Virus record (IMG/VR): IMGVR_UViG_3300030104_002385
Span: 1 to 64,000 of that record
Reading direction: 5' to 3' (one strand)
Length of the DNA stretch: 64,000 bases
Origin: a virus
Position numbers and translations under genes: made by a program. Of the stretch, positions 1 to 53,214 are shown piece by piece. Within the stretch, counting starts at the first letter, position 1, and each line of letters begins with the position of its first letter. The notes beneath the pieces are model-generated. The model was not told where the DNA came from. It was given only the letters and a program-made list of their open reading frames with translations, and ran no database searches.

Positions 1-1638
1 GACTTTCAGATCTTTGATTTAAACAGTGGTACTCAAACTGGGTTTAGAGTTAAGGCAAGAGTTAAGGCAGTATTTGACGATAGCGGTTCATCCACAGTAT
101 TCACAGGTACTTCATGGGAAATATTAGAGATATTATCACCTGGTGCCAATTATACAGTTGGTACTGTATTTCCTTTATCATATGTACATACCCTTCCTGA
201 TAACTCAACTGCTACATTGACCGTTAATTTAAAGATAACTGCCGTTGCCCCACAACCAACTGTAACAGGTCAAACTAATTTCGACGTTCTATTAATAGGT
301 GATACCATTAATGGGCATACTATAACATATGTTTGGCATAGTGATCTGGATAATTTTCCGTATCATATAATATACGTCAATGGAAGTGGTAGTAATTTTA
401 CTAAGGATACACAATATACATCTAATAGAGGTAATGTAATTACTGCAAAAGCAGGAAAAGGTATAGCAGATAGAGCAGCGTTGGTTGGAATGTATGAATT
501 TCTAGAAAAATCAACGCAATATGTTACTGTAGACGTAGATAAGAACGCACCAGACATCTTTAATCTGTTACAACAACCAGAAGTAACAGTAACACTTACA
601 AATGGAATAGTTACTAATCTTACTATAGTCAGTGGAGGATCTGGATGGGCTAGTTATAACCGTACTCCCAAAGTTATGATATCACCCCCGTCGGTCTCCA
701 CAGGTACTCAAGCAACTTGTAAGGCAGAATTTACTGGTGGAGTGCTAACTGCTATAAAAGTAGACATACCTGGTAGTGGATATTCATCTACAAACCTTCC
801 ACAGGTTTATATAACTAACGTTCATAAGGAAACGACTACTGTTTTAGAGAATGATGCGTATATTCCCGATGAATTTGAGAAATTTAAGAAGGATATTTAC
901 GATAATATACCTGGATTAGACTTTCAAGCGGATGATTTAGCAAAATTAGAGACCACACACATGTCTCAACCCGAAAAAACCATTGTAAATGACTTTGATC
1001 CGTCCTATAAAGTGAAATTAGACACTAATAGGAACAGAATTGACAAATTACCGCAACGAAAATACGCAAAAAACAGGACTCAGCACTTATATGAGAAGAC
1101 TGATGTCAAACATACCTTAGATAGCATTAAAGACATTGAAGAATTACCTAATTCTTACCTTGATTTGATGCAAAAGAACCAAATTGATGATAATAGAGCG
1201 TATCGAAGGAAGGATATTTCCGATATTACGCAGGAAACCGTACCTGATGTCACAGTTCACCGTGAAAGTTTCGTAGAGACCGTACAAGGAACCATGTCTA
1301 ATCTTCCTTACTCCTCACAATACACCAAATACCTAATGAGGCAGTACAGACCCGATACGAGAAGTGTTATAGATATAAATGTAACGCTATCTTGCACTCC
1401 TGTTAACGCAGGTTGTTCACATTTTGCTTGTAGTGCCCCTGCAGGTTCTACTGGTGGCACGACTGATAACGGAAATGGTACTTCAACTACCACATCTTAT
1501 GCAATGTCGGGTCTAATGGGTGATGGTTGTAAGTCATGGACTGCAACTGGTACCATGAAAATGTGGAATGAGTATACCAATCAACGGAATACTTGGAAAA
1601 GTGCAGTTAACGAAAACGGAAATCCCTATAATCCTTAA
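1..1638 (+). CDS. Virion structural protein, 5'-truncated, directly upstream of the PAAR gene
   Basis: Frame 1 is open from base 1 (DFQIFDLNSGTQTGFRVKARV...), so the TTG at 217 is not the true start. Contains the GSGW/GSGY-xxxP-V-I repeats seen in the other structural genes here and a Cys-containing C-terminus ending NGNPYNP. Confidence 0.6.
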   Translation, partial: DFQIFDLNSGTQTGFRVKARVKAVFDDSGSSTVFTGTSWEILEILSPGANYTVGTVFPLSYVHTLPDNSTATLTVNLKITAVAPQPTVTGQTNFDVLLIGDTINGHTITYVWHSDLDNFPYHIIYVNGSGSNFTKDTQYTSNRGNVITAKAGKGIADRAALVGMYEFLEKSTQYVTVDVDKNAPDIFNLLQQPEVTVTLTNGIVTNLTIVSGGSGWASYNRTPKVMISPPSVSTGTQATCKAEFTGGVLTAIKVDIPGSGYSSTNLPQVYITNVHKETTTVLENDAYIPDEFEKFKKDIYDNIPGLDFQADDLAKLETTHMSQPEKTIVNDFDPSYKVKLDTNRNRIDKLPQRKYAKNRTQHLYEKTDVKHTLDSIKDIEELPNSYLDLMQKNQIDDNRAYRRKDISDITQETVPDVTVHRESFVETVQGTMSNLPYSSQYTKYLMRQYRPDTRSVIDINVTLSCTPVNAGCSHFACSAPAGSTGGTTDNGNGTSTTTSYAMSGLMGDGCKSWTATGTMKMWNEYTNQRNTWKSAVNENGNPYNP

Positions 1639-37203: not shown

Positions 37204-40200
37204 ATGGCACAAAATACTAACTTAAACGTCACCCCGTATTACGACGACTTTGATAAAAGTAAAAACTTTTATCGAGTGCTGTTCCGACCTGGATTTCCTA
37301 TACAGGCAAGAGAACTATCCACGATGCAAAGCATCATGCAAAATCAGGTTGAGAACATTGGTTCTCATACCTTTAAAGATGGTGCAATGGTCATACCAGG
37401 TCAGGTTGGTTATGACTTAAATGTTGACTGTATCATGCTTCAAGAAAGTTTTCTTGGTGCTGATGTTGAGAATTATCGTAGTCAACTTACAGGTAAAATT
37501 ATTACAGGTTTGACTTCTGGTGTTAAAGCCAAAGTCCTTTATAGTATATCTGCTGCTGAATCTGACAAAAGCTACATTACAATATATGTAAAGTATATTG
37601 AATCTGGTGGTGCTGCATTAAATCAAGATACATTTTCAAATAATGAACAGTTAATTACTGAAAGTGAAATTACTTTTGGAACTACTTTGATTGAAGTTGG
37701 TTCACCATTTGCACAGTTGTTACCTACTTCAGCAATTCAAACAGGATCTGTTGCTTATGTACAATCTGGTGTATACTTTATTAGAGGGTTCTTTGTAGAC
37801 GTACCCTATCAATATATCCTTCTTGATCAATATGGAACTTCACCAAAATATAGAATTGGACTTGAAATCCTCGAGTCAATTGTTACCCCAGAAGATGACC
37901 TTAGCCTCAATGATAACGCTGCAGGAACATCTAATTATGCTGCTCCTGGTGCTCATAGGTTCAGAGTAACAACAAACTTAATTAAAAAATTACTTACAGA
38001 TGATGCTGATAAGGACTTTATAGAATTACTAAGACTTAATGGTAATAAGGTTGAGAAGATTGTTGATCGTAGTGCTTACGATGAATTAGAGAAAAGTCTT
38101 GCCTTAAGAACATTTGAAGAAAATGGTGACTATGTTGTAAAAGATTTCCAAATCAGTATGAGGGAAAACCTCAATGATGGATTTAATAATGGTGTTTATT
38201 CCATTGGAGATATTACAAGTGGTGGTGCAACTGCTACTGAATCTAATTACTCTGTTGAAATTGGACCTGGTATTGCGTATGTAAGGGGTTATAGAGTTAA
38301 GACTACAGCACCAACCTACATTGACTTAATAAAACCAAGAGAAACGGATTCTGCACAGAACACTAACATAGCATTTGAACTTGGAAACTGGTCTACTATA
38401 GAAAACCTATTTGGTTTCCCTAATGTTGCTGGATCTACAATTACTAATGCATATCAAACTTTAGAATTACGTGATACTTTAACAGCAAGTGCTGGAACTG
38501 CTGCTGGTAATCTTATTGGTTATGCTAGAGTTGCTTCATGTGAATATGTAAGTAATCCAGATACGACATTTGGTAATACTGATGACAGGTATAAATTAAA
38601 TCTGTTTGATGTACAAATGGTAACTACAATTCAGTTGAATTCTGCTAAGACTATTGCTCAAGGATCAATAGTTGTTGGTGCAACAACTGGTGCAAGAGGT
38701 TATTTAATTGATGCTGTAACTGCAGCAACTCATATAAACTTGTATCAAGTAGAAGGAACATTTGCTGCTAGTGAGTATTTACTTTTAGATGGTGAACAAT
38801 TAGATACGATTACTAATGTTCACACATACAAATATTCAGATACCAGACAGATTGTTGGTAAAGATGAAGGTACTACTGCTGTAGAATTTACTTGTGATGT
38901 TCGTTTAGAAGATGCACTATTCCTTCAAGGTGCTACATTTACCTATGATGCGACTGGTGGTTCTGAAAAGATTACTGGTTTAAATTCTAATTTTGCATCT
39001 GATTTAAGACCAGGTGATAGAATTTACTTCTCTGAGACTAAGTATGTTGATGTTGATTTTGTAGATCCTACTAACTTAGCATCTTCAAACGTATCTACAA
39101 TATTCAACTATCAAGCTCAAACTGTTAATGTTACTCCTGGTGCTGGTGGTGCTGCTCCTACTGCAGGAACTTATACTGTAATGGTAAGATATAGATCTAA
39201 ATTAAATCAAACTGAAAATGCAGATCTATTCAGTGCTCTAACTAAACCATATGTTAAGAGTATTTCTGATGAATCTATGGTTTGTAGAAGAACCTTTGAT
39301 GCTCAAACTGTTGCATCAAGTTCTATCTCCATAACCCTTCCTGAAAATGAGCAGTTTGAACCAATAACAGATCAGAATTATACTATTACTGTACTCGGTA
39401 GTACTAACGGTACTTATCCTGCTGGTGATCAAATACCTATTGATATAGCAAACTCTGGTGCTTTAGGATATACTTCTTTCACATCTTCTGAAAGAACTAC
39501 TATTCAGATAGATAACCTAACAAATATATCATCTGTTAAGGTAACAGCAACAATTTCTAAGAACGTAACGCAGAGAAAGACAAAGGCGTTACAGAAAATG
39601 TTTATCTTAAAAGTCAATAAGACTACTAAGAATTTAGATAAGATAAATTACGGTTTAACATATTCAAACTTATATGGAACAAGAATACAAGATAAAGATG
39701 TATCTCTTGGTCTAGTAGATTCTTATAAAGTTCATGCTGTGTATGAATCATTAGATGATAGTGATCCAGTAATACCATCTGTTACTTTAGTTGAACCTAC
39801 ATTCTTTGCTGTAGGAACAGTTGTAACTGGTAGAACTTCCAAAGCAAGGGCAACAGTAGTTGATTTTAACTCAAGTACTTTAAAACTAACAATCGTTTAT
39901 CTATCTGGTGCATTCACATCTGGTGAAACTGTTAATGGTTTCAATACTGCAGGTGCTGCTATTAGTGGAATTATCAATGATTCTGTTGGATCTGTTGTAG
40001 CAGGTTCTAAAGTAATTACAGATCGATATATTGTAGATAATGGTCAAACACCATTCATGTATACTTGTGCTAGATTAACTAGAAAGAAAGGATTTGTTCA
40101 ACCAATTAGAAAGTTAAAAATCGTTATAGATTACTATAGTCATTCTGCTACTGGAGATTACTTTGGTGGTCAGTCTTACTTAGAAACTGATTATAAGAAT

Positions 40201-43200
40201 ATCAATATATTTGAGAATAGGTTTATGGCTGACTTCTTGGACTTCCGTCCAGGTGTCAAGAACTTATATACTGGAACAGGAACCGTTGCTTCACCAGCAT
40301 ATGTAAACTGTTCTACGTTTGACTTTAAGTCAAGAGTATTTCCAACTTCAGGTACTCCTGCTGCTACATTATTTGATATACCAAAACTCAATAGCAACTT
40401 TAAGTGTGACTTTGATTGGTATCTTGCTAGAATTGATAAACTATATTTACTACCTAATGGTAAATTCCAAATCATTAAAGGTAAGTCTTCAGAAAATCCT
40501 TCTGAACCAGATAACCTTAATGATGGTATGCTCTTAGGAATATTAAGACATGCACCATATGGATTTAATCCAAATAAAGATGTATCTATAGCTAAATCTG
40601 ATCATAAGAGATTTACTATGAGAGACATTGGTGCTCTAGAAAAACGTCTTGATCAGGTTGAATATTTTACATCTCTCAATATGTTGGAGACAGATACCTT
40701 CAACATTGAAGTTACTGATGCTTCTGGTAAGAACCGTTTGAAGAATGGTTTCCTTGTAGATGATTTTACAGATCATTCAAAATCAAACCTCAAATCAGAA
40801 GATTGGGGTGCATCTCTAGACTTTAGGGAAGGTGTTGCACGTCCATCTCACTTCACAACAAACGTTTCATTGATTATTAATGAAACATTATCTCAAAATT
40901 ATCAGAAGACTGGTCCTGTTGTTACCCTTCCATATACAGAAGAAGCATTAATAACACAACCATATGCATCTAGGACTGAAAACGTTAACCCATTTAACGT
41001 CTTTACATACATCGGACGTATTGATTTAACTCCAGCATCAGATGACTGGGTTGATACTAATAGATTACCTGAAGCTGTTCAAAGTATAGAAGGTGACTTT
41101 AGAGATACAACAGAAAGATTGAATACAGATCAAAATGGATTTGCTGGAACTCAGTGGGGTTCATGGGAAACTACATGGACAGGATCGGGAACGAGAGAAT
41201 CATTAGGAAGAAGAAATACAAGTAGACGTAGTGATTGGGGTGGTGGACTTGCAGTTGATGAAACTACAAGAATAACCGTACCTTCTAGACAGACAAGAGC
41301 TGGTGTTAGAACAAGAGTTGTACCCAGAATTGATAGAATTTCTCAAGGAGATACAGTTGTTTCTAGAACATCTACACCTTGGATCCGTTCCAGAAACATT
41401 GATGTTAGTGTTGTACGTATGAAGCCTAGAACTTCATTCTTCTCATTCTTTGATGGACAATCAGTTAATGACTACTTCACACCTAAGATTATTGAACTTA
41501 TTAAGGATAGTACAACTGATGCTAGAACAAACTCAACACCATTTGTTGTTGGTGAAACAGTAACAGGTCTTACTAGTGGATGCAAATTGAAAGTTGCAGC
41601 TCCTGATGACTACTACAAATTCAATCCATATGATGATACTGAATTAGCAAGTTCTTATTCTTCTACTACAGCATTCTTAAATATTGATACTGTATCACTT
41701 GCTGCACAAGCAACAGGTACTTACTACGGTAACATGCAAGTTGGTGAAGTATTATTAGGTACTTCTGGTGCTAGAGCAGTAGTTAGAGATCGTAGATTTA
41801 TTACTGACAGAAGAGGACAATATAGAGGAAGTTTATTCATTCCACCAGCAAATGTAGATACAAACCCACGTTGGGCAACTGGTACTAGAGTTCTTAGATT
41901 TACAACAAGTGCTACAGATTCTAGAACAGGGGGAACTGTTTCATCATCTGCACAAGCAGATTATCAAGCAACAGGTACTCTTGAAACTATTCAAGAAAAT
42001 ATACTTGCTGTAAGAAATGCTGATGTTGTTACTGACACTGTAACTCAAACTGAAAGTAGAAATACAGTCAGAACAGAAACACGTCAGGTTGGTTGGTATG
42101 ACCCTCTTGCACAGTCCTTTATTATTGACGAGGAAGGTGGTTCATATGTAACTTCAGTTGATGTTTACTTTAATGCTAAGGATGCTAATATTCCTATTTC
42201 CATGCAGATACGTTCTATGGAAAATGGATATCCAACTACATCAATTTTACCATTTTCTGATACTACATTAAATCCTGATAATATTCAAATCTCTGAGACA
42301 GGTTCTATTGCTACGAAGTTTACCTTCCAAGCACCAGTTTATATACCACAGTCTCAAGAACATTGTTTCGTTCTCTTATCAGACTCTAACTCTTATCAAG
42401 TTTGGATTTCTAGGATGGGTGAATTGGATATTACTGGAGATAGAACTATATCTGAACAACCTTATGCTGGTGTTCTGTTTAAATCACAGAACGCATCAAC
42501 ATGGACTGCTGATCAGTATGAGGACATGAAGTTTATTGTTAACAGAGCAGTCTTTAATACTAGCGTTAATTCACAATTAGTTTTAAACAATGCTTCATTA
42601 GATAGGGGTAATGGAGGACAAGTAGTTCTTCAAACAGATGCTATACAAACATTCCAACCAGAATTGCAGTTGGTAATGAATGCTAACAACCTTCCATATA
42701 CAGTTGGATCTAGACTTTATCAGAAGACTACTAATGCTGAAGGTACAGTTACTTCAGTTGGATCTAGTGGATCTGCAGTTCTCTTAACTATTAATGATAT
42801 TTCAGGTACTTGGGCTGCTGGTTCTAATACTGGTGGTGTTATTTCCAATAGAGTTGTTTCATCCAAAGCACTTGCTACTATGGTAGTAACTGGTGCATCA
42901 GGTGACTTCACGGTTGGAGAAACAATCACTGGTAACTCAGCTACTGCTCCTACTGCAGAAGTTGTTACTTGGACTGCTGGTACAAATACACTTACACTTA
43001 AGTATGTTTCTACTGACTTTACTGCATCTACTGAAACTATTACTGGTGCTCTATCCTCAAAAACTGCAACTGTGGGTTCTATAACTTATAGTGGTGATAC
43101 TATCGTTGCTTCTGCAGTTGCTGATGCTTTCGTAGGAACTTCACCAACATATACAAGTTCTCAAAGAAAGATTAGAGTATTCCATTCTAACCATGCTATG

Positions 43201-44376
43201 CATGATTTAGATAACAACGTCATTATCTCTGGTATAGAATCTGAAGTTACACCAACATATTTAACATCTGCAATTGCTGCAGGTGATACCAGTTTACAGG
43301 TTAATGATGCTAGTGCGTTCCATAAGATTATTAATGGAGTTGCAATAAGTGCATCTAACGTTGCATACATTAAGATCAATGATGAGATTATGTCTTACAG
43401 TGCCATTAGTAATGACGGTAAAACAATTACTGTTTATGAAAGAGGTGTATCAGGAACTGCTGTAACACAAGCAGACGAATCTATTGTCGAATGTTACAAC
43501 TTAGATGGTATACCATTGACAGAACTTAATAAGACACATACAGCATTACAGACACCAACCCTAGATTCATATGATCTAGTAACGACTTCTATTGCTATAC
43601 AAGGAATTAAGTCAGGTGGATCTTCGATACTTGCTTCTCAGAATATACAGTATGAATATGTAACACCTTCTGTTCAAAAGGTTCTATTACCTAATACGGA
43701 TATGACAGGTAGGGTTAATTCAATTAGTGGAACTTCTATTAATAATGGTGTTACTCTAAGTCAGAATTCATTCAGTAATAATGGTAAGTTCTATGATGTT
43801 CTGATTAATCGTAGTAATGAGTTCATAAGTCCTCAATTAATATGTTCAAATATTAATGAATCAACAGAATTGGGTGGTGCGAAATCATTTAGATTAGATT
43901 TAAATCTAACAAGTACTGATAGCAACGTTTCACCAATTATTGATACTGATAGAATGTCTATTATCTTGACATCTAATAGGATTAATAATCCAAGTAATGT
44001 AGATTCTGCTAAGTTACCAGTTGGTGATGAGCATGAAGCTGCTTATATAACTAAGATTGCTGATCTAACAAATCCATCTTCATCTATCAAACTAATATTT
44101 TCGGGATACCGTCCACCAGATACACTTATTAAACCTCTATATAGAGTATTGCCATCTGGATCAACTGACTCCATTGAGAAATATGGATTTGAGTTCTTCC
44201 CAACTAATGATGCAACTATTCCAAACACAACAGAATTGGAAGAGTATAGGGAATATGATTATGAGGTTTCTGGATTAGACTTCACACAATATCAAATTAA
44301 GGTATTGTTTGTGTCTGCTAACCAAGCATCTATCCCAAGAATAAGTGACCTAAGAGCGATTGCACTTGCTATCTAA
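37204..44376 (+). CDS. Large virion structural protein, VrlC/DUF4815-like (2390 aa)
   Basis: NLNVTPYYDDFD..NFYRVLFRPGFPIQARELSTMQS, APGAHRF, RLKNGFLVDDF, DPLAQSF, GVLFKSQNASTWT..QYEDMKF, C-terminal PRISDLRAIAL. Confidence 0.85.
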   Translation: MAQNTNLNVTPYYDDFDKSKNFYRVLFRPGFPIQARELSTMQSIMQNQVENIGSHTFKDGAMVIPGQVGYDLNVDCIMLQESFLGADVENYRSQLTGKIITGLTSGVKAKVLYSISAAESDKSYITIYVKYIESGGAALNQDTFSNNEQLITESEITFGTTLIEVGSPFAQLLPTSAIQTGSVAYVQSGVYFIRGFFVDVPYQYILLDQYGTSPKYRIGLEILESIVTPEDDLSLNDNAAGTSNYAAPGAHRFRVTTNLIKKLLTDDADKDFIELLRLNGNKVEKIVDRSAYDELEKSLALRTFEENGDYVVKDFQISMRENLNDGFNNGVYSIGDITSGGATATESNYSVEIGPGIAYVRGYRVKTTAPTYIDLIKPRETDSAQNTNIAFELGNWSTIENLFGFPNVAGSTITNAYQTLELRDTLTASAGTAAGNLIGYARVASCEYVSNPDTTFGNTDDRYKLNLFDVQMVTTIQLNSAKTIAQGSIVVGATTGARGYLIDAVTAATHINLYQVEGTFAASEYLLLDGEQLDTITNVHTYKYSDTRQIVGKDEGTTAVEFTCDVRLEDALFLQGATFTYDATGGSEKITGLNSNFASDLRPGDRIYFSETKYVDVDFVDPTNLASSNVSTIFNYQAQTVNVTPGAGGAAPTAGTYTVMVRYRSKLNQTENADLFSALTKPYVKSISDESMVCRRTFDAQTVASSSISITLPENEQFEPITDQNYTITVLGSTNGTYPAGDQIPIDIANSGALGYTSFTSSERTTIQIDNLTNISSVKVTATISKNVTQRKTKALQKMFILKVNKTTKNLDKINYGLTYSNLYGTRIQDKDVSLGLVDSYKVHAVYESLDDSDPVIPSVTLVEPTFFAVGTVVTGRTSKARATVVDFNSSTLKLTIVYLSGAFTSGETVNGFNTAGAAISGIINDSVGSVVAGSKVITDRYIVDNGQTPFMYTCARLTRKKGFVQPIRKLKIVIDYYSHSATGDYFGGQSYLETDYKNINIFENRFMADFLDFRPGVKNLYTGTGTVASPAYVNCSTFDFKSRVFPTSGTPAATLFDIPKLNSNFKCDFDWYLARIDKLYLLPNGKFQIIKGKSSENPSEPDNLNDGMLLGILRHAPYGFNPNKDVSIAKSDHKRFTMRDIGALEKRLDQVEYFTSLNMLETDTFNIEVTDASGKNRLKNGFLVDDFTDHSKSNLKSEDWGASLDFREGVARPSHFTTNVSLIINETLSQNYQKTGPVVTLPYTEEALITQPYASRTENVNPFNVFTYIGRIDLTPASDDWVDTNRLPEAVQSIEGDFRDTTERLNTDQNGFAGTQWGSWETTWTGSGTRESLGRRNTSRRSDWGGGLAVDETTRITVPSRQTRAGVRTRVVPRIDRISQGDTVVSRTSTPWIRSRNIDVSVVRMKPRTSFFSFFDGQSVNDYFTPKIIELIKDSTTDARTNSTPFVVGETVTGLTSGCKLKVAAPDDYYKFNPYDDTELASSYSSTTAFLNIDTVSLAAQATGTYYGNMQVGEVLLGTSGARAVVRDRRFITDRRGQYRGSLFIPPANVDTNPRWATGTRVLRFTTSATDSRTGGTVSSSAQADYQATGTLETIQENILAVRNADVVTDTVTQTESRNTVRTETRQVGWYDPLAQSFIIDEEGGSYVTSVDVYFNAKDANIPISMQIRSMENGYPTTSILPFSDTTLNPDNIQISETGSIATKFTFQAPVYIPQSQEHCFVLLSDSNSYQVWISRMGELDITGDRTISEQPYAGVLFKSQNASTWTADQYEDMKFIVNRAVFNTSVNSQLVLNNASLDRGNGGQVVLQTDAIQTFQPELQLVMNANNLPYTVGSRLYQKTTNAEGTVTSVGSSGSAVLLTINDISGTWAAGSNTGGVISNRVVSSKALATMVVTGASGDFTVGETITGNSATAPTAEVVTWTAGTNTLTLKYVSTDFTASTETITGALSSKTATVGSITYSGDTIVASAVADAFVGTSPTYTSSQRKIRVFHSNHAMHDLDNNVIISGIESEVTPTYLTSAIAAGDTSLQVNDASAFHKIINGVAISASNVAYIKINDEIMSYSAISNDGKTITVYERGVSGTAVTQADESIVECYNLDGIPLTELNKTHTALQTPTLDSYDLVTTSIAIQGIKSGGSSILASQNIQYEYVTPSVQKVLLPNTDMTGRVNSISGTSINNGVTLSQNSFSNNGKFYDVLINRSNEFISPQLICSNINESTELGGAKSFRLDLNLTSTDSNVSPIIDTDRMSIILTSNRINNPSNVDSAKLPVGDEHEAAYITKIADLTNPSSSIKLIFSGYRPPDTLIKPLYRVLPSGSTDSIEKYGFEFFPTNDATIPNTTELEEYREYDYEVSGLDFTQYQIKVLFVSANQASIPRISDLRAIALAI

Positions 44377-44961: not shown

Positions 44962-47900
44962 ATGGCAAATAGAATACAGTTAAGACGAGGTGGTGCTCAG
45001 GAATGGGCAAACTCAAACCCTACATTGGCACAAGGTGAATTAGGGATAGAATTAGACACAGGCCGATTTAAACTTGGCGATGGTGTTTCAGCATGGAACT
45101 CTTTGAGATACGAGAGACCAGTTGAATCAACATCTAATACAGCAAATACGTTAGTACAGAGAGACGCAGACGGCAATTTTTCTGCTGGTACTATAACGTC
45201 AACTCTAATTGGTAACGCTTCAACTGCTACACGTCTTGCTTCAACTAGACAAATTCAACTCTCTGGGGATGTACAATCATCTGGTGTATTCGATGGTTCT
45301 GCAAACCTAACATTAAACTCAGCATTAGGTTTAGTATCAACACTACCTCATTATGATGGTACTGCAACACCTACAGGTACATATACAAAACTTACTGTAG
45401 ATGCAAAGGGTAGAATTACTAATGCTACAAACCCAACAACTCTTGCTGATTACAATCTTAATGGAACCGTAGAAGGTTCATCTGCACAACCATATGATTT
45501 AGACCTTGTTGCTGTTGCAGGTCTTACTAGTACTGGTTTAATATCTAGAACTAGTACTGGTACTATGGCAACCAGAGCAATTGCTGGTACTGCCACAAGA
45601 ATTGCTATTACAGATGGTAGTGGTCTTTCTGGAAACCCAACAATTGATCTTATAACAACTGCTGTTACTGGTGCTGCTTATAACACAGCATCTCTAACAT
45701 CTATTGCTGGATCACAAACTGTTAATACTACAGCATATACAGTTGATGATTACGGTAGACTAACAGCATCAGTAGCACTTCCTATTGCAACTGCTGTAGA
45801 GGGAACAGATGCACTTGCATATGCTGCAGGTACTACATATGTTCGTGATGATAAAATTACTAATGCATCAAAACTTTATCAAGCAATAGCAGGTATTGCT
45901 GCTGGTGCTGGTGCTCCAACTCATTCAGATGCTACTGATGCTGGATCTTGGAGATATCTTGGTGCAGTTACAACTAAACAAAAAGGATTAGCGTCATTCG
46001 CACAGGAAGATTTTGACGTATCTGCAGCAGGTCATGTCACTATTTCTGCTAATGGGGTTGATAATACTCAACTACAAAATAGACGTATCGGTTTTGCTGA
46101 TGGAAATACTGTAGAGAATTTTGAATTAGATCAGGAACTCACAGCAACATCTGGTTATAGAGGTTTTAATTATTTAAATTATATAAAGGTCAATGACACT
46201 TCAGGTAATCTTCTGTTTGGTGCTAATAACACTGGCGATAGTAGTGCTGGTGAGATCGATGTCAATGTAAGATCATACTTTAGTGATCCAGATATTACTT
46301 TGGATGGTGCTGTTGCACAAACTTTAGACAAGACTGGAGATGGTAATCTAACATTCCAGACTACACAGAACTCAACATCCGCTAGAACATTAAGTATTTT
46401 AGCAACTAATGCTGGCACTGGTGCTAGTGGTGTTGTAGTAACTGCAGAAAATACAGTTACTATCACTGCATCAGACGCTGCTGGTAAAGTTCAAATAGAA
46501 GACATATATCTTCAAGGAGATTATATCGCTTCCTCTGCTGCTACTATGATCTTGGATCCTGGTGATGACAGAGCGACTAGTGGTAAAGTTCAGATAATGG
46601 GGGATTTACAAGTTGATGGAACGACTACGACAGTTAATTCAACCGTTACTACGTTGGATGATCCTATTATCACTCTTGGCGGTGATACTGCTCCAGGTTC
46701 AGATGACGGTAAGGATAGAGGAGTTGAATTCAGATATTACGACACACAAGCAAGAGTTGGATTCTTTGGTTACGACGATTCGGCCGCTGATCTTGGAGGC
46801 CATTCAGGAGCGTTCTCATTCGTCTACGATGCCACAAATACCGCAGAGGTATTCGCTGGAACAGATGCAGGGATCATCGCTGGTAACTTAAAATTAACAA
46901 CTAATACTAACTCAACCTCAAATACTACTGGAGATTTAGTAGTAGCAGGTGGTGTTGGTATTGGAGATGATGTTAATATTGGTGGTACTTTAGATGTTGA
47001 TACTAACTTCAGAACTCATGGTACATCTAGGTTTGATGATGAAGTAGTTATTCAAGGTGCATCTAAAGACTTCATAATGAAGAACGGAAGTGGTACTGCA
47101 AAATTTACAGCAGGATCTACAACTGGTAACCTTACTATGGCAGGTGTTCTTGCCGTCACAGGTAATGTAGATGTTAATAGTAATAAGTTTAATATAACAG
47201 CAGCATCTGGTAATACTGCTATTGCTGGTACTCTAACGGTATCAGATGAGACTATAGTTAAGGCAGACAATAAAACCTTTAAAGTTCAAACTGCTGCTGG
47301 AGTAGATAAGTTTGTTGTTGATACAGATAACGGTAATCTAGATTCTGCAGGTGGTGCAAATATTGCAGGACTTGTTTATCTTGAAAGTACAGATGAACCT
47401 GATATCTTATCTGGTGCTCCACATACAATTCAGAATGCCGACTACGGTGCATTACGAGTAGATGGTGGTGGATACTTTGATAAGAACGTTCTCTTTAATG
47501 GTGACATCTTCCTGAATGGTGACTTTAACCAGCAAGAAGACGCAACTGAGAACTACGGTTTAAGGAACTATCTATCCATCAGATACAAGATGCGAGCAGG
47601 TTCTGTTGCTGCATATACTCCAAGTTATTCAAACCATAACACTTCTAACTTAAGAGTTTTTGGTGGTGCTGGTATTAACACAACACTACACGTTGGTGGA
47701 ACTGGTGCTAGTCAAGGTTTATTTGTAGGTAAAAAGAACTCTGGAGATACAGTTAAGTTTAGTGTTCTAGGTGCTTCAGGAGATATCACATCTGAAGGTA
47801 CACTAACACAGAATGGTAATGCTGAGTTTAATGGAACTGTAGATGTCGATGGTAACTTTGCTGTTCGTAATAGTACAACAGATAAGTTTACTGTTGCTTC

Positions 47901-50900
47901 TTCTACTGGTAATGCAGTTGGTGAAGGAGATCTAAACATTAAAGGTGCAGTTGATTTTGATACTACACTTAATGTTGATGGTGCTACAACTATCCAAGAT
48001 GATCTTATCGTCAAGTCTGACAATAAGACGTTCAAGGTTCAGAATGCATCTGCTGCAGATAAGTTTACTATTGATACTGATAATGGTAATACAGAGACAC
48101 AAGGTACATTAACAGTACAAGGTCAAACAAACATCATTGACTCTCTTGTAATTAATGCAGCGAATGAAAATTTATATATTCAGAATGGTTCTGCTGTTAC
48201 TAAATTCTCAGTTGATACTGATAACGGTAACACTAACATTATTGGTACTCTTACCGTTGGTGATGCTACACAGATTAATGACACCTTCGGTGTTTCTGGT
48301 GTAGTAACAGCAACAAATAACACAGAGCAAACACTTACTGGTTCATATGCTGCTGATGGTTCTGTAAGACTTTCTGGTGGTGTTGGATTAGCAAAGAACT
48401 TAGCAGTTGGTGGAGACGCAAGAGTATACGGTACTTTAGAAGTAACACAGACTGTAGATATTAATGACGCTGTTGATGTATCAGGTAATTTAGTTGTAAG
48501 TAATACACAAGAAGCAACATCTCTTGCAGATGCTTCTGTTGCTCTACAAGTTGCTGGTGGTGCAACGATTGATAAGAACACCTACATTGGTGGAAACCTT
48601 GTAGTCTATGATGCTGGTAATACTCGTGCTGCATTTACAGTAACTAACAGTTCAGGTGATGGTGAGTTCCACAATGACCTTACAATTGGAGGTAACTTAA
48701 TAGTCAATGGATCAACAACTACTGTCAATAGCACGGTCACAACTCTCGATGACCCTATTATTACTTTGGGTGGTGACACAGCACCATCGTCTAATGATGC
48801 TAAGGATCGTGGTGTTGAATTCCGTTACTATGACGGCTCTGCTAAAATTGGGTTCTTCGGATTTGATAGATCCACACAAGAATTTGCATTCCTAACAAGT
48901 GCAACTAATACTTCAGAGGTTCTAGCAGGTACAGATGGTCCATTAAGAGTTGGATCTATTAATGTAACTGGTGCTGGTACTTCAGTTGATATTGATAATA
49001 ATTTAAATGTAGATGGTACAGCAACAGTTGATGGTCAAATAATTTCTCAACTTGCTCAAGGTACTGCTCCATTTGTAATTGCATCTACAACTAAAGTTAA
49101 TAACCTTAACGCAGATCTACTAGATGGCATGACAACTGCTACTGCTAATACAGTATCTACAGTTGTTAATAGAGATGCATCTGGAAACTTTGCTGCAGGA
49201 ACAATTACTGCTGCCCTAACAGGTAATGCAGATACTTCTACTGAAGCAACAAATGTAACTGTTAGTGCTAACAATACTGCTAATGAAACTGTATATTTAA
49301 CATTCGTTGATGGTGCCACTGGCACTCAAGGAGTTGAAACTGATACAGGACTTAATTACAATCCAAGTACAGGAATTCTAACTACTACCCAAGTAACTGG
49401 TAATGTAGTTGGAGATGTAACTGGAGATCTTACAGGTACTGCTGATGTTGCAACTACAATTACTCTTGCTGACGAATCTACTGACACTTCATGTAACGTT
49501 CTATTCGCAACAGCAGCAACTGGCAATCTTGCAGCGAAGACTGGTACTAACCTCACGTTCAATTCCAACACTGGTATTTTAACTGCTACTGGATTTAGTG
49601 GTCCTATTACTGGTGAAGTTACAGGTAATGCTGCTACTGCTACAGTCCTCGCTACAGCGAGAAATATTGGTGGGGTATCATTCAATGGTTCTGCTGATAT
49701 AACCCTTCCAGGCGTTAATTCAAGCGGTAATCAGGACACCTCTGGTAATGCTGCTACTGCTACTGCTCTTGCAACAGCAAGAAACATTGGTGGAGTATCA
49801 TTTGATGGTACTGCTGCAATTAACCTTCCAGGCGTTAATACAGCAGGTAATCAGGACACCTCTGGAAATGCTGCAACTTCTACTCAGGCAGCAAACCTAA
49901 CCAATCATAATACTGGTGGTCTATCAGAAGGAACTAACCTCTATTATACAGAAGCAAGAGTACAAGCAAAACTAGATAATGCTTATTCTCAGTTGAAGTC
50001 TATGCTCAATAACCTTGCAACTTCAACTACATTGACTATGAATTTATCTGGAGACCCAACACCAGGTGTCGTTGTTACTCTCGGATCAATTACTGCTAAT
50101 GGTATTGGTGGATTTTCGAGTGCTTCAAACGTTGCTACATCAGGTGGAACAGGATCTTCATTAACAGTTGATACTACAGTTAACGCTGCTGGTGCTATAA
50201 CTGGAATAGCATTGAATACTGCTGGTACAGACTATCTTGTATCTGATACTTTGACAATCACTAACCCAAATCTGGGTGGTGTTTCTGCTCTTAACGTTGG
50301 TACTTTAAGTGCTGGTACTGGATATGCTACAGGAACTACTATCGCAACAACTTCGTCTGGATCTGGTAGTGCATGTACAGTTGATATTACTGGTGTTAGT
50401 GGCACTGGTGCCATCACTGGTATATCAATCAATGCAAATGGTTCTGGTTATGCAATCGGTGAAACACTAACAATCGCCAATGCTAATGCCACTGGTGCTA
50501 AGACCCTCGGTTCTATCGCTACTGCTGGTACAGGTTATGCTGCTGGATCTGCTATTGCTACTTCTGCTTCTGGATCTGGATCTTCTGCAACTGTTGACAT
50601 TACAGTTGATGGATCTGGTGCTGTAACAGGTGTCACAATTAATGATGATGGTACTGGATATGCAGCATCTGAAGTATTGACAATTACTAACGCTAATGCA
50701 TCTGGTGTTAAAACACTCGGATCTATTAGTGTTGCTGGTACTGGATATACTACAGCATCTGGAGTTGCTACAACTTCATCTGGTTCAGGAACTGGATTGA
50801 CAGTTGATGTAACAGTATCTTCAGGTGGTCTTGCAACTCTAACAATTAATAATGATGGTTCTGGATATGCTGCATCAGACACTATTACAGTTGTTAATGC

Positions 50901-51468
50901 TAACGCATCTGGAGTTAAAACTCTTGGAACTATCTCTGCTGCTGGTACTGGATATACTGAAGGAAGTGCTACTGGTGTTTCAACAACAGCAAGTGGATCA
51001 GGTACTGGTCTGACGGTAGATATTGTTGTTGATGCATCTGGTAACGTTACTAGTGTTGCAATTAATAATGATGGTTCTGGATACGCAGCATCTGAAGTTA
51101 TCACAATTGCAGGTGAAGGTGATGGTAATGCTACTATCCCAGTCTCTGCTATTCATGGAAATGGAGGAACATCATCTGTTTCTGCTATTCATGGTAACGG
51201 TGCAACGATCCCTGTATCAGCAATACATGGTAATGGTGCATCGATTAATACTTCTACAGTATTCACCAATGCTACATTCGCTCTATCTGACATCACAACG
51301 ATGGAAGTTGGTGCAACTGTAACAGGTGGAACCTCTGGTACAACTGGTGTTATTACTGCTCTTGGTACTAATGCAATTACAGTTAATACCGTTGACGGAT
51401 TCTTCAAAGTCGGAGAAACCGTTGGTGCTAATGATGTTACTAACTTGACGATCTCCTCATTCGCTTAA
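44962..51468 (+). CDS. Long fibre protein (2168 aa) with Mtd/hyaluronidase-type N-terminal attachment domain
   Basis: RIQLRRG...W...NPTLAQGELGIELDTGRFKLGDG..AWNSL N-terminus; VDAKGRIT and GNASTATRL fibre motifs; Gly/Thr/Ala-rich beta repeats; lies just before gp13. Confidence 0.85.
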   Translation: MANRIQLRRGGAQEWANSNPTLAQGELGIELDTGRFKLGDGVSAWNSLRYERPVESTSNTANTLVQRDADGNFSAGTITSTLIGNASTATRLASTRQIQLSGDVQSSGVFDGSANLTLNSALGLVSTLPHYDGTATPTGTYTKLTVDAKGRITNATNPTTLADYNLNGTVEGSSAQPYDLDLVAVAGLTSTGLISRTSTGTMATRAIAGTATRIAITDGSGLSGNPTIDLITTAVTGAAYNTASLTSIAGSQTVNTTAYTVDDYGRLTASVALPIATAVEGTDALAYAAGTTYVRDDKITNASKLYQAIAGIAAGAGAPTHSDATDAGSWRYLGAVTTKQKGLASFAQEDFDVSAAGHVTISANGVDNTQLQNRRIGFADGNTVENFELDQELTATSGYRGFNYLNYIKVNDTSGNLLFGANNTGDSSAGEIDVNVRSYFSDPDITLDGAVAQTLDKTGDGNLTFQTTQNSTSARTLSILATNAGTGASGVVVTAENTVTITASDAAGKVQIEDIYLQGDYIASSAATMILDPGDDRATSGKVQIMGDLQVDGTTTTVNSTVTTLDDPIITLGGDTAPGSDDGKDRGVEFRYYDTQARVGFFGYDDSAADLGGHSGAFSFVYDATNTAEVFAGTDAGIIAGNLKLTTNTNSTSNTTGDLVVAGGVGIGDDVNIGGTLDVDTNFRTHGTSRFDDEVVIQGASKDFIMKNGSGTAKFTAGSTTGNLTMAGVLAVTGNVDVNSNKFNITAASGNTAIAGTLTVSDETIVKADNKTFKVQTAAGVDKFVVDTDNGNLDSAGGANIAGLVYLESTDEPDILSGAPHTIQNADYGALRVDGGGYFDKNVLFNGDIFLNGDFNQQEDATENYGLRNYLSIRYKMRAGSVAAYTPSYSNHNTSNLRVFGGAGINTTLHVGGTGASQGLFVGKKNSGDTVKFSVLGASGDITSEGTLTQNGNAEFNGTVDVDGNFAVRNSTTDKFTVASSTGNAVGEGDLNIKGAVDFDTTLNVDGATTIQDDLIVKSDNKTFKVQNASAADKFTIDTDNGNTETQGTLTVQGQTNIIDSLVINAANENLYIQNGSAVTKFSVDTDNGNTNIIGTLTVGDATQINDTFGVSGVVTATNNTEQTLTGSYAADGSVRLSGGVGLAKNLAVGGDARVYGTLEVTQTVDINDAVDVSGNLVVSNTQEATSLADASVALQVAGGATIDKNTYIGGNLVVYDAGNTRAAFTVTNSSGDGEFHNDLTIGGNLIVNGSTTTVNSTVTTLDDPIITLGGDTAPSSNDAKDRGVEFRYYDGSAKIGFFGFDRSTQEFAFLTSATNTSEVLAGTDGPLRVGSINVTGAGTSVDIDNNLNVDGTATVDGQIISQLAQGTAPFVIASTTKVNNLNADLLDGMTTATANTVSTVVNRDASGNFAAGTITAALTGNADTSTEATNVTVSANNTANETVYLTFVDGATGTQGVETDTGLNYNPSTGILTTTQVTGNVVGDVTGDLTGTADVATTITLADESTDTSCNVLFATAATGNLAAKTGTNLTFNSNTGILTATGFSGPITGEVTGNAATATVLATARNIGGVSFNGSADITLPGVNSSGNQDTSGNAATATALATARNIGGVSFDGTAAINLPGVNTAGNQDTSGNAATSTQAANLTNHNTGGLSEGTNLYYTEARVQAKLDNAYSQLKSMLNNLATSTTLTMNLSGDPTPGVVVTLGSITANGIGGFSSASNVATSGGTGSSLTVDTTVNAAGAITGIALNTAGTDYLVSDTLTITNPNLGGVSALNVGTLSAGTGYATGTTIATTSSGSGSACTVDITGVSGTGAITGISINANGSGYAIGETLTIANANATGAKTLGSIATAGTGYAAGSAIATSASGSGSSATVDITVDGSGAVTGVTINDDGTGYAASEVLTITNANASGVKTLGSISVAGTGYTTASGVATTSSGSGTGLTVDVTVSSGGLATLTINNDGSGYAASDTITVVNANASGVKTLGTISAAGTGYTEGSATGVSTTASGSGTGLTVDIVVDASGNVTSVAINNDGSGYAASEVITIAGEGDGNATIPVSAIHGNGGTSSVSAIHGNGATIPVSAIHGNGASINTSTVFTNATFALSDITTMEVGATVTGGTSGTTGVITALGTNAITVNTVDGFFKVGETVGANDVTNLTISSFA
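49624..49876 (+). repeat. 120-bp tandem duplication (~2.1 copies) in the fibre gene
   Basis: GNAATAT.LATARNIGGVSF.G.A.I.LPGVN..GNQDTS repeats from 49624, 49744 and 49864, with shared DNA runs such as ggtaatcaggacacctctgg. Confidence 0.9.
50065..51300 (+). repeat. Five ~70-aa repeats followed by five ~12-aa repeats (nested domain block) in the fibre C-terminus
   Basis: Openers at ~50065, 50272, 50488, 50698 and 50905; closers GNATIPVSAIH, GNGGTSSVSAIH, GNGATIPVSAIH, GNGASINTSTVF, TNATFALSDITT at 51124-51300. Confidence 0.85.
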
Positions 51469-52287: not shown

Positions 52288-53214
52288 ATGGCATATTCAA
52301 ATTCACCAGCACAGGATTACGTTCAGTCTGACTATAGTAATTCTTCACGTTTGAACGTTAATGGGTCTGCTCAAGAGCAGAAGTTTATAGAAAATCTAAT
52401 TGTAGAAACAATTGAAATTTACGGGCAAAATATTTACTACGTGCCGAGAACTATTGTCAACCGTGATAGTGTCTTCGGAGAGGATTCTGATGGCAAATTT
52501 GAAAGTGCCAAAGCGATTCGTGCCTATGTCAATAATGTTGAAGGATGGGAAGGACAAGGCGAACTTCTTACGAAGTTTGGGATCCGCATCGAGGATAAGA
52601 CAACATTTGTATTCTCCCGTGAAAAATTTAAAGAAAAGGTTGATGACAGCACTGTCCTCAATGTCGAAGGAAGACCCAACGAAGGGGATTTAATTTGGTT
52701 CCCTATAACTAAACATTTATTTGAAATTAAGTTTGTAGAAGTCGAACGTCCTTTCTATCAGTTAGGTAAGAATTACGTTTGGGAATGTCAGTGCGAACTC
52801 TTTGAGTACAGTGATGAGGAGATTGACACTGGTCTTACAGAACTTGATGCTATTGAGACTGCCTTTGCTAATGCAATTACAGTTGGTCTTGCTGCTGGTG
52901 GTTCTGGAGACTTCACTGTTGGTGAGACTGTTACTGGAGGTAGTTCTAATGTAACTGCTGAAGTTAAGTCTTGGGATTCTAGTACTAGAACACTTATTGT
53001 TATTAACCGTTCTGGTACATTTACTATACCAGAAACATTGACAGGTGGTACATCTAGTGCATCTTGGACTACTGCTACATATAATACAATAGACAATAAA
53101 AATACAACGTACGATCAGAACTACGAATTTGAAACTGCTGATAATGATATCATAGACTTCAGTGAAGCAAACCCATTCGGATCAGTTGGATCATCCACTG
53201 ACTTAACAATCTAA
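52288..53214 (+). CDS. gp14: Neck protein gp14
   Basis: EQ..IENLIVETIEIYG..IYYVPR, KFGI, RPNEGDLIWFP, FEIKFVE..PFYQLGK, CELFEYSDE, DFSEANPFG. Confidence 0.95.
   Translation: MAYSNSPAQDYVQSDYSNSSRLNVNGSAQEQKFIENLIVETIEIYGQNIYYVPRTIVNRDSVFGEDSDGKFESAKAIRAYVNNVEGWEGQGELLTKFGIRIEDKTTFVFSREKFKEKVDDSTVLNVEGRPNEGDLIWFPITKHLFEIKFVEVERPFYQLGKNYVWECQCELFEYSDEEIDTGLTELDAIETAFANAITVGLAAGGSGDFTVGETVTGGSSNVTAEVKSWDSSTRTLIVINRSGTFTIPETLTGGTSSASWTTATYNTIDNKNTTYDQNYEFETADNDIIDFSEANPFGSVGSSTDLTI

What the first reader, a model, noticed from the sequence alone, without database searches (positions are those of the whole stretch)
50030..51468. Second, unrelated Russian-doll block: five-deep linear nesting in the fibre tip
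SEEN: five ~70-aa repeats (G.KTLG.I..AGTGY ... GSG...TVD ... I.I.NDGSGY...E.LTI.NAN) are followed by exactly five short strands (GNATIPVSAIH, GNGGTSSVSAIH, GNGATIPVSAIH, GNGASINTSTVF, TNATFALSDITT). The three most similar openers are the last three and the three most similar closers are the first three, the mirror symmetry expected for nesting. The block itself interrupts an outer module (TTLTMNLSG... | MEVGATVTGGTSG...FFKVGETV). INFERENCE: the chain runs out through five domains and returns by donating one strand to each, giving a telescoping rod whose length can change by one opener plus one closer.
Basis: partly seen in the sequence, partly recalled or inferred. Interest (0 to 1): 0.8.

Follow-up and report, generated by a model that had tools for sequence, protein, structure and literature searches.

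The report
Five nested barrels in cyanophage fibre
The last 480 residues of a giant fibre protein of a marine T4-like cyanophage most likely form a rod of five small beta-barrels plugged one inside the next, each finished by one short strand supplied by the chain on its way back; related phages carry one to eight such levels, always in matched pairs.

Summary
Observation confirmed and interpretation supported. The ORF 44962-51468 (+, 2168 aa) is the giant cyanomyovirus fibre that sits just upstream of gp13. Its C-terminus holds five ~70-aa modules followed by five 11-12-aa strands, all placed between the first strand and the last 55 residues of a small terminal barrel.

- **Counts:** in 63 distinct homologous C-termini plus database representatives, modules and closing strands are equal in every case, with n = 1, 2, 3, 4, 5, 6 or 8. 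Block length is 82.3 x n - 0.9 aa (r 0.999).
- **Order:** sequence classes of openers and closers run in mirror order.
- **Model:** AlphaFold2 gives pLDDT 87.9. Structural alignments to single-domain chains span 28..510, 45..454, 114..441, 256..418 and 328..406, exactly the nested pairs. The pair of the third opener and third closer was not seen directly.
- **Innermost module alone:** it folds as a six-stranded barrel (pLDDT 94.9) closest to T4 sheath gp18 domain I (Z 4.6, 23% identity), a weak match.

'Telescoping' holds only as stepwise length change in evolution. The far tip is the innermost barrel, not the protein's C-terminus. Nested insertion is known from gp18 and cyanobacterial RNA polymerase Si3. 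This regular, same-domain, variable-depth form is a new variant. This scan has already found the same nest in orthologous fibres of at least five other genomes. All evidence is computational.

The parts
44962..51468 (+). Whole gene: 2168-aa giant fibre / virion structural protein (phrog_697; 'YadA domain-containing structural protein', T4-GC 402), immediately upstream of gp13
   Evidence: ORF. phrog_697 E = 0 and gp13/gp14/gp15 homologues downstream. N-terminal Mtd_N domain. Same position in P-RSM4, P-SSM4, S-SM1 and others.
49951..50016 (+). Helix (22 residues) that ends the fibre shaft, just before the nested block
   Evidence: DSSP H6-27 in the AF2 model. Nearly invariant in 60 homologues.
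50026..50067 (+). First strand of the outer (base) barrel (TTLTMNLSG) plus the DPTPG linker into the insertion
   Evidence: Strand E33-37. VIA alignments of single small barrels span 28..510 with 67 aligned residues and 13-22..501-510.
50068..50277 (+). Opener 1 (five strands of barrel 1, outermost of the stack)
   Evidence: HMM 92.5 bits. Five strands. VIA range 45..454 with 75 aligned residues, which is opener 1 plus closer 5.
50278..50493 (+). Opener 2
   Evidence: HMM 88.3 bits. VIA ranges 114..441/443 with 71-79 aligned residues, which is opener 2 plus closer 4.
50494..50703 (+). Opener 3
   Evidence: HMM 106.4 bits. Five strands. Pairing with closer 3 is inferred from the four levels around it and was not seen directly.
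50704..50910 (+). Opener 4
   Evidence: HMM 99.4 bits. VIA range 256..418 with 72 aligned residues, which is opener 4 plus closer 2.
50911..51156 (+). Innermost, contiguous barrel (opener 5 plus closer 1): the distal tip of the rod
   Evidence: Folds alone with pLDDT 94.9, pTM 0.82 and six strands. VIA 328..406/407 and 3..82 against T4 gp18 residues 98..188. The 82-position HMM matches it end to end, but matches openers 1-4 only to position 68-70.
51157..51192 (+). Closer 2 (sixth strand of barrel 4)
   Evidence: Strand E412-418. VIA range 256..418.
51193..51228 (+). Closer 3 (inferred sixth strand of barrel 3)
   Evidence: Strand E422-430. Assignment by position and by mirror class order.
51229..51264 (+). 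Closer 4 (sixth strand of barrel 2)
   Evidence: Strand E435-442. VIA range 114..441.
51265..51300 (+). Closer 5 (sixth strand of barrel 1)
   Evidence: Strand E446-453. VIA range 45..454.
51301..51468 (+). Last 55 residues plus stop: the rest of the outer (base) barrel, constant in length in all homologues
   Evidence: Always 55 aa. VIA 28..510 and 454..510. Weakly similar to the C-terminal extension of the window's gp14.

Best explanation
The C-terminal 480 residues of the fibre build a rod by recursive domain insertion of one small six-stranded beta-barrel.

**Path of the chain.** After the last shaft helix the chain lays down the first strand of a base barrel. It then runs outward, making the first five strands of barrels 1 to 5 in turn. 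Each next barrel is inserted in the loop between strands 5 and 6 of the one before. At the far end barrel 5 is completed in one piece. The chain then runs back, giving each open barrel its sixth strand (closer k completes opener 6-k). It ends by completing the base barrel next to the shaft.

**Consequences.** Every junction is crossed by two chain segments, which should make the rod stiffer than beads on a string (inferred). The distal tip is the innermost barrel, which is also the most variable in type between phages, so it is the likeliest contact point with the host (inferred). Between phages the rod changes length only in whole units of one opener plus its partner closer, about 82 residues. 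This needs two coordinated changes at mirror positions, probably a double out-of-register recombination (inferred).

**Status of the claims.**
- Shown: the repeats, the 1:1 counts, the mirror class order, and the predicted pairing for five of six levels.
- Not shown: oligomeric state, real structure, function.
For: **Counts**
- Modules and closers are equal in 7 of 7 named phages.
- The same holds in all 63 distinct C-termini from 80 viral contigs.
- Block length is 82.3 x n - 0.9 aa with r = 0.999. Openers average 69.6 aa and closers 11.7 aa.
- n = 1 and n = 2 forms also obey the rule.

**Order**
- Class strings are palindromic, for example GMLIIA|gjjdck.
- The extra third opener of class L always comes with an extra closer at third-from-last, its mirror position. 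This holds in all 23 L-containing sequences.
- Mutual information between opener and closer class is 2.25 bits in mirror order. It is 1.27 bits in parallel order and at most 0.49 bits in 1000 within-protein shuffles.
- Across 44 proteins, each opener's divergence correlates best with its nested partner closer (0.46, 0.58, 0.61, 0.77).

**Structure**
- The AF2 model of 510 residues has pLDDT 87.9 and pTM 0.62, with five strands per opener and one per closer.
- VIA-align ranges of about 70-residue single domains are 28..510, 45..454, 114..441/443, 256..418 and 328..406.
- The innermost unit alone folds with pLDDT 94.9 and six strands.
- The complete-module HMM matches openers 1-4 only up to position 68-70 of 82, so they lack the last strand.
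- The first half of the module aligns to the second half with the closer equivalent to strand 3 (hhalign P = 0.003).
Against: - No coordinates or contact map could be read, so pairing rests on the first and last aligned residues of structural matches.
- The opener 3 with closer 3 pair did not appear in either list.
- The model is a monomer, while fibres of this kind are usually trimers. In a trimer the closers could pair differently.
- The sequences are related, so the statistics over homologues are not independent samples.
- Within-protein mirror correlation is mixed in homologues whose innermost module is of the divergent class: mean 0.43 in mirror order against 0.26 in parallel, with mirror order better in 27 of 44.
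- The half-to-half similarity is weak (hhalign probability 10%).
Confidence: 0.85

Rival explanations
1. The nest is real in topology but domain-swapped. In the native trimer each returning strand completes a barrel of a neighbouring chain, not of its own, knitting three rods into one bundle.
For: Fibres of this family are expected to be trimers (general knowledge of phage fibres). The block follows a short helix that could be a coiled coil. Only a monomer was modelled. Equal counts and mirror order fit this reading equally well.
Against: The innermost unit folds on its own as a closed six-stranded barrel with pLDDT 94.9. The monomer model satisfies all pairs within one chain at high confidence. 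The turns between closers are only 3-4 residues long, which leaves little slack to reach another chain.
Confidence: 0.07
2. The five short strands form a structure of their own, such as a beta-meander or a trimeric beta-helix stalk. This runs beside a string of five-stranded, open modules, and the equal counts only reflect matching lengths.
For: The closers are a regular 12-residue repeat, as in some fibre beta-helices. DSSP alone cannot say which strands they pair with.
Against: Single compact domains align across opener k and closer 6-k in the model. Opener and closer classes co-vary pair by pair in mirror order, not only in number. The contiguous innermost unit uses its closer as the sixth barrel strand and superposes on the whole of T4 gp18 domain I, including that strand.
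Confidence: 0.06
3. An ordinary tandem-repeat (beads-on-a-string) region followed by an unrelated low-complexity tail, with the equal counts a coincidence.
For: The openers are tandem in sequence, and Gly/Ser/Thr-rich composition could mimic repeats.
Against: Equality holds for n = 1 to 8 in every one of 63 distinct sequences and across several innermost-module types. The regression intercept is about zero. Openers 1-4 lack the last strand that opener 5 has.
Confidence: 0.01

Closest known systems
T4 tail sheath protein gp18 (PDB 3FO8, 3FOA): domain I inserted in II, in III, in IV
   Same: A phage structural protein built by domain-in-domain insertion, described as such in PMC3004832. Its domain I (residues 98-188, a six-stranded barrel that is itself an insert) is the best structural match of the module here: Z 4.4-4.6, rmsd 3.1 A, 75 of 82 residues, 23-24% identity, whole domain covered.
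   Different: gp18 nests four different folds, once each, to a fixed depth. Here one fold is nested in itself five times (one to eight in relatives), and each host domain is split so that only a single strand returns. gp18 domain I has an alpha-helix that the module lacks. The Z score is modest, so homology is not established.
Si3 insertion of cyanobacterial RNA polymerase beta' (RpoC2; PDB 8EMB)
   Same: Repeats of one small beta domain (SBHM), several of them discontinuous in sequence, form an elongated body in which the chain goes out and comes back (PMC10895346). A survey of 2.7 million domains singles it out for six-level recursive insertion (PMC13114784).
   Different: A different fold as far as tested: only a weak Foldseek row for 8EMB, E 0.2 and TM 0.1. 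Si3 is branched and irregular, with mixed continuous and split domains, and has a fixed architecture. The fibre nest is strictly linear, regular, and varies in depth between close relatives.
Other nests of the same module in marine phage structural proteins
   Same: The module is common in cyanophage fibre, baseplate and virion proteins (BFVD TM 0.7-0.86; 429 representatives at E <= 0.001). Some unrelated proteins show runs of strand-less modules, one full module, then a run of short strands with another motif.
   Different: Those proteins are not annotated or described. Their architectures look partly branched and were only read by eye here.

Membership tests
Cyanomyovirus giant fibre (phrog_697; T4-GC 402, 'YadA domain-containing structural protein') | Full-length similarity to the family profile | tested here: met
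   phrog_697 E = 0, 2638 bits, residues 1-1534 plus the C-terminus. tblastn finds the C-terminus in 244 cyanophage records.
Cyanomyovirus giant fibre (phrog_697; T4-GC 402, 'YadA domain-containing structural protein') | Gene lies directly upstream of the neck protein gene gp13 | tested here: met
   In the window, gp13, gp14 and gp15 homologues follow at 51474, 52288 and 53214. The order is the same in six named phages.
YadA-type trimeric autotransporter adhesin domains | Match to Pfam YadA head, stalk or anchor models | tested here: not met
   A Pfam scan of the whole 2168-aa protein at E <= 1 lists only PF18454 (Mtd_N). The database name is not reproduced, and it does not concern the C-terminal block.
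Recursive (nested) domain insertion, A1-B1-C-B2-A2 pattern | Host domain is discontinuous in sequence and the insert lies wholly inside the gap | tested here: met
   In the model, about 70-residue compact matches span 28..510, 45..454, 114..441, 256..418 and 328..406. This rests on a prediction, not a solved structure.
Recursive (nested) domain insertion, A1-B1-C-B2-A2 pattern | An inserted domain is itself host to a further insert, repeatedly | tested here: met
   Five of six levels were seen as ranges. The level of opener 3 with closer 3 is inferred from its neighbours, the counts and the mirror class order.
T4 gp18 domain I-like barrel | Structural superposition over the whole domain at a convincing score | tested here: inconclusive
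   Top three VIA rows are Z 4.4-4.6, rmsd 3.0-3.1 A, 75-76 aligned residues, 23-24% identity, chain range 98..188. Foldseek gives TM 0.55-0.58 at E about 2. There is no sequence match in the PDB.
T4 gp18 domain I-like barrel | Six-stranded barrel plus one alpha-helix (PMC3004832) | tested here: not met
   The model has six strands and no helix.
SBHM / hybrid-motif domains of RNA polymerase Si3 | Fold match of the module to an SBHM | tested here: inconclusive
   The whole model gives only a weak Foldseek row for 8EMB (E 0.2, TM 0.1). No SBHM entry is among the 50 listed VIA rows for the single module.

The most novel reading that the evidence does not exclude
Marine phage fibres use a general, evolvable building principle that has not been described. 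A rod is made by inserting one small barrel into itself again and again, to at least nine levels counting the base barrel in eight-module relatives. That is deeper than the six levels reported as the extreme in a survey of 2.7 million domains. Rod length is tuned in exact steps because selection accepts only paired gain or loss of an opener and its distant partner strand.
Probability: 0.6. Interest if true: 0.75.

Novelty: new variant of a known kind. Interest (0 to 1): 0.62.

Why it matters
- **Protein architecture.** If the model is right, this is one of the deepest and by far the most regular cases of domain-in-domain building. It also comes with a natural series of 1 to 8 levels, which shows how such nests grow.
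- **Reading the fibre.** The business end of this host-recognition fibre would be a hairpin turn (the innermost barrel), not the protein's C-terminus. That matters for interpreting host-range mutations in these abundant ocean viruses; the orthologue in S-TIM4 mutates during adaptation to new hosts (PMC6224464).
- **Evolution.** A change in length needs two matched changes hundreds of residues apart, yet no mismatched form was seen.
- **Engineering.** It suggests a length-adjustable rigid scaffold for protein design.

Tried and rejected
- **Foldseek against the PDB, whole model:** nothing at E <= 0.001. The elongated multi-domain shape defeats global scores.
- **Foldseek against the PDB, single module:** also nothing at E <= 0.001.
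- **Profile search of PDB sequences with the module alignment:** best E 0.064, unrelated S-layer proteins.
- **Pfam on the module and on the last 55 residues:** nothing above noise.
- **Mirror versus parallel correlation within single proteins:** clear for the window (0.90 against 0.05) but mixed over 44 homologues. I replaced it by class order and cross-protein correlation.
- **Cutting closers as fixed 12-mers:** this slipped register because some are 11 residues long. I replaced it by a small dynamic-programming segmentation.
- **Search for the opener 3 with closer 3 range:** a second VIA look at the whole model returned only the base barrel.
- **Internal duplication of the module:** half against half gives only weak support (hhalign P 0.003, probability 10%).
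- **Model coordinates:** not available in the script box, so no contact map could be computed.
- **Literature searches:** no description of this fibre's C-terminal architecture was found.
Full report
**Where it is**

The finding lies at the end of one long ORF, 44962-51468 on the + strand, 2168 aa.
- The protein matches the cyanomyovirus 'structural protein' family phrog_697 over its whole length (E = 0).
- It is followed at once by homologues of the T4 neck and tail-terminator genes gp13, gp14 and gp15.
- Its only Pfam domain is an N-terminal Mtd_N.
- The C-terminal 508 residues find 244 cyanophage records. There the gene is called 'YadA domain-containing structural protein' (T4-GC 402), 'fiber' or 'structural protein', and it also lies just before gp13.
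- The window is therefore part of a marine T4-like cyanophage of about 36-39% G+C.
- The orthologue in S-TIM4 (ORF108) was mutated in all populations during experimental adaptation to new hosts. Its authors regard it as part of the tail-fibre apparatus (PMC6224464).

**The observation**

- After a helix and the strand TTLTMNLSG with the linker DPTPG come five modules of 69-72 residues.
- Five strands of 11-12 residues follow, and then 55 final residues.
- A module HMM scores 88-106 bits on each copy.
- The closers register as a 36-bp tandem repeat.
- Openers 3-5 are the most alike, at 60-63% identity. Among closers 1-3, the pairs 1-3 and 2-3 are 75% identical and the pair 1-2 is 50%.
- The two similarity matrices agree in mirror order (r = 0.90) and not in parallel order (r = 0.05).

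**Test 1: counts in homologues**

In six named phages the numbers of modules and closers, counted by eye, are as follows:

| Phage | Modules / closers |
|---|---|
| S-SM1 | 2 / 2 |
| P-SSM7 | 3 / 3 |
| S-RIM14 | 3 / 3 |
| S-SSM4 | 3 / 3 |
| P-RSM4 | 4 / 4 |
| P-SSM4 | 6 / 6 |

Eighty viral contigs gave 63 distinct C-termini when combined with the window and the six named phages.
- The module number from the HMM is 2, 3, 4, 5, 6 or 8.
- The stretch between the last module and the constant 55-residue end falls into non-overlapping length classes, one per module number.
- Block length fits 82.3 x n - 0.9 residues (r = 0.999). Openers average 69.6 residues and closers 11.7. Every module is thus accompanied by one closer, and nothing is left over.
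- Representatives from a library of 1.8 billion proteins add forms with one module and one closer, and two with two.
- I found no sequence with unequal numbers.

**Test 2: order and co-variation**

I clustered openers and closers into sequence classes after a register-aware segmentation.
- The class strings are palindromic, for example GMLIIA|gjjdck and GMIII|jjjck.
- The most telling case is opener class L. It appears only as a third opener and is always accompanied by one extra closer at the third-from-last position, its mirror partner. This holds in all 23 L-containing sequences, although the two elements are up to several hundred residues apart.
- Mutual information between opener and closer class is 2.25 bits in mirror order, 1.27 in parallel order, 1.1-1.5 when the mirror order is shifted, and at most 0.49 in 1000 within-protein shuffles.
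- Across 44 proteins with four or more levels, the divergence of each opener correlates best with that of its nested partner closer (0.46, 0.58, 0.61, 0.77 on the diagonal).
- These sequences are related, so the numbers are descriptive rather than probabilities.

**Test 3: predicted structure**

AlphaFold2 on window 49936-51465 with 59 homologues (alignment A1) gave mean pLDDT 87.9 and pTM 0.62. The model has five strands in every opener and one in every closer.

When the whole model is aligned to 48,161 solved chains, matches to single small barrels of about 60-90 residues have these first and last aligned residues:

| Model range | Aligned residues | Nested pair |
|---|---|---|
| 28..510 | 67 | outer strand plus last 55 residues |
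| 45..454 | 75 | opener 1 plus closer 5 |
| 114..441 or 443 | 71-79 | opener 2 plus closer 4 |
| 256..418 | 72 | opener 4 plus closer 2 |
| 328..406 or 407 | 72-76 | opener 5 plus closer 1 |

- With rmsd near 3 A to a globular domain, such ranges are possible only if the distant pieces sit together in space.
- They are exactly the pairs nesting predicts.
- The pair of opener 3 and closer 3 did not appear in this list, nor in a second look that was filled by the base barrel. It is inferred.

**The module**

- The contiguous innermost unit (window 50911-51156) folds alone with pLDDT 94.9 and pTM 0.82 into six strands, the closer being the sixth.
- An HMM of this complete unit matches openers 1-4 only to position 68-70 of 82. 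They lack the last strand in place.
- The first half of the module aligns to the second half with the closer opposite strand 3. This is weak (P = 0.003) but consistent with the closer being an integral strand of a duplicated barrel.
- The best solved match is domain I of the T4 sheath protein gp18 and its Klebsiella phage counterpart: Z 4.4-4.6, rmsd 3.0-3.1 A, 75-76 residues, 23-24% identity, covering exactly residues 98-188.
- Translation-factor-type barrels follow at Z 3.8 or less.
- These scores are modest. There is no PDB sequence match and no Pfam family. I therefore treat it as 'gp18 domain I-like' in fold, not as a proven relative.
- In predicted viral structures the module is common in cyanophage fibres, baseplate and virion proteins, at TM 0.7-0.86.
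- The base barrel resembles aIF2-gamma domain III and the N-terminal barrels of F1/V1 ATPases (Z 5-5.9) and a baseplate protein of a Klebsiella phage (Z 6.9).

**How it most likely works**

- **Shown:** the repeats, the strict pairing of numbers, the mirror order, and the predicted pairing for five of six levels.
- **Rod shape (inferred).** In a six-stranded up-and-down barrel the loop between strands 5 and 6 lies at the pole opposite the two termini. Inserting the next barrel there stacks the barrels in a line.
- **Stiffness (inferred).** Each joint is crossed by two chain segments, which should stiffen the rod.
- **Tip (inferred).** The protein's C-terminus returns to the base, and the distal tip is the innermost barrel. 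That barrel is the most varied in class among relatives (classes I, A, B, C, H), which fits a role in contact with the host.
- **Growth (inferred).** Growth by one level needs a new opener and a new closer at mirror positions. A double crossover that is out of register by one unit in opposite senses in the two arrays would do this in one step. Products with only one array changed should misfold, which would explain why none is seen. Intragenic recombination between repeats of this gene has been reported (PMC6224464).
- Nothing supports physical telescoping.

**Rivals**

- **Domain-swapped trimer:** closers complete a neighbour's barrels. This cannot be excluded, because only a monomer was modelled.
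- **Separate closer sheet or helix:** contradicted by the ranges, by pair-wise class co-variation, and by the innermost unit using its closer as a barrel strand.
- **Coincidence:** excluded by the counts.

**What is known**

- Domain-in-domain nesting is described for T4 gp18: I in II in III in IV (PMC3004832).
- Self-nesting of one small fold is described for the Si3 insertion of cyanobacterial RNA polymerase (PMC10895346).
- A 2026 survey of 2.7 million domains presents Si3 as the example of six-level recursion (PMC13114784).
- The fibre nest has six levels in this window (base barrel plus five) and, by count and class order, nine in eight-module relatives.
- It differs by being strictly linear, made of one fold, split so that only one strand returns, and variable in depth between close relatives.
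- My literature searches found no description of it.
- I rate it a new variant of a known kind.

**Earlier notes of this scan**

- The same architecture has already been reported by this scan in orthologous fibres of at least five other genomes, with the same reading.
- A different, branched nest was reported in the gp7-like protein of this genome.
- I used those notes only after my own tests. They agree but are not independent evidence.

**Limits**

- All evidence is computational.
- There is no contact map, no multimer model and no experiment.
- One of the six levels is inferred.

Noticed in passing
window 52288-53214 (+), gp14 homologue, residues ~205-270: The neck protein gp14 carries a C-terminal extension beyond the T4_neck-protein domain. 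The extension resembles the fibre's last 55 residues (VGxTVTGG... motif; BLASTP E 0.001, 34% over 41 residues). It looks like an uninterrupted copy of the base barrel.
   Followed up: partly
window 35667-37199 (+), baseplate wedge subunit (phrog_438), residues 221-286: One copy of the same barrel module (HMM E 4e-7), ending at profile position 71. It also lacks the last strand in place and may be another split domain.
   Followed up: no
window 6053-29974 (+), 7974-aa gp7-like protein, residues ~1132-1312; window 31244-35626 (+), 1461-aa baseplate wedge protein, residues ~893-937: Further weak matches to the fibre module (E 1e-5 to 1e-3). They lie outside the region of the gp7 nest noted earlier by the scan. 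The module seems to be reused in several baseplate proteins of this phage.
   Followed up: no
proteins P0019 (1604 aa), P0027 (1182 aa), P0049 (1197 aa): Unrelated phage structural proteins show runs of strand-less modules, one complete module, then a run of short strands with a different motif (SSGFxVPVAxV, period 13). Nesting of this module is therefore not confined to the gp13-adjacent fibre. Some cases look branched (oFoF).
   Followed up: partly
window 49624-49884 (+): A 120-bp tandem repeat (2.2 copies, 85% matches) encodes a 40-residue fibre-shaft repeat (…ATARNIGGVSF.G…NLPGVN…GNQDTSGNAAT…) just upstream of the nested block.
   Followed up: no
window ~46620-46900 and ~48740-49020 (+), fibre residues ~555-645 and ~1260-1350: Two distant copies of a ~90-residue segment within the same protein (TTTVNSTVTTLDDPIITLGGDTAP…DRGVEFRYYD…), seen in the translation. 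The fibre contains long-range internal duplications besides the C-terminal nest.
   Followed up: no
window 37204-44376 (+): A 2390-aa ORF between the baseplate wedge gene and the fibre matches only families of unknown function (phrog_358, E = 0). It is another giant, uncharacterised virion-module gene.
   Followed up: no
window 51154-51156 and equivalents in homologues (last residue of the first closers): The histidine that ends the innermost closer (…SAIH) is invariant in all 49 innermost units aligned. The outer closers end in F, A or T instead. The residue may pack at the joint between levels; this is unexplained.
   Followed up: no
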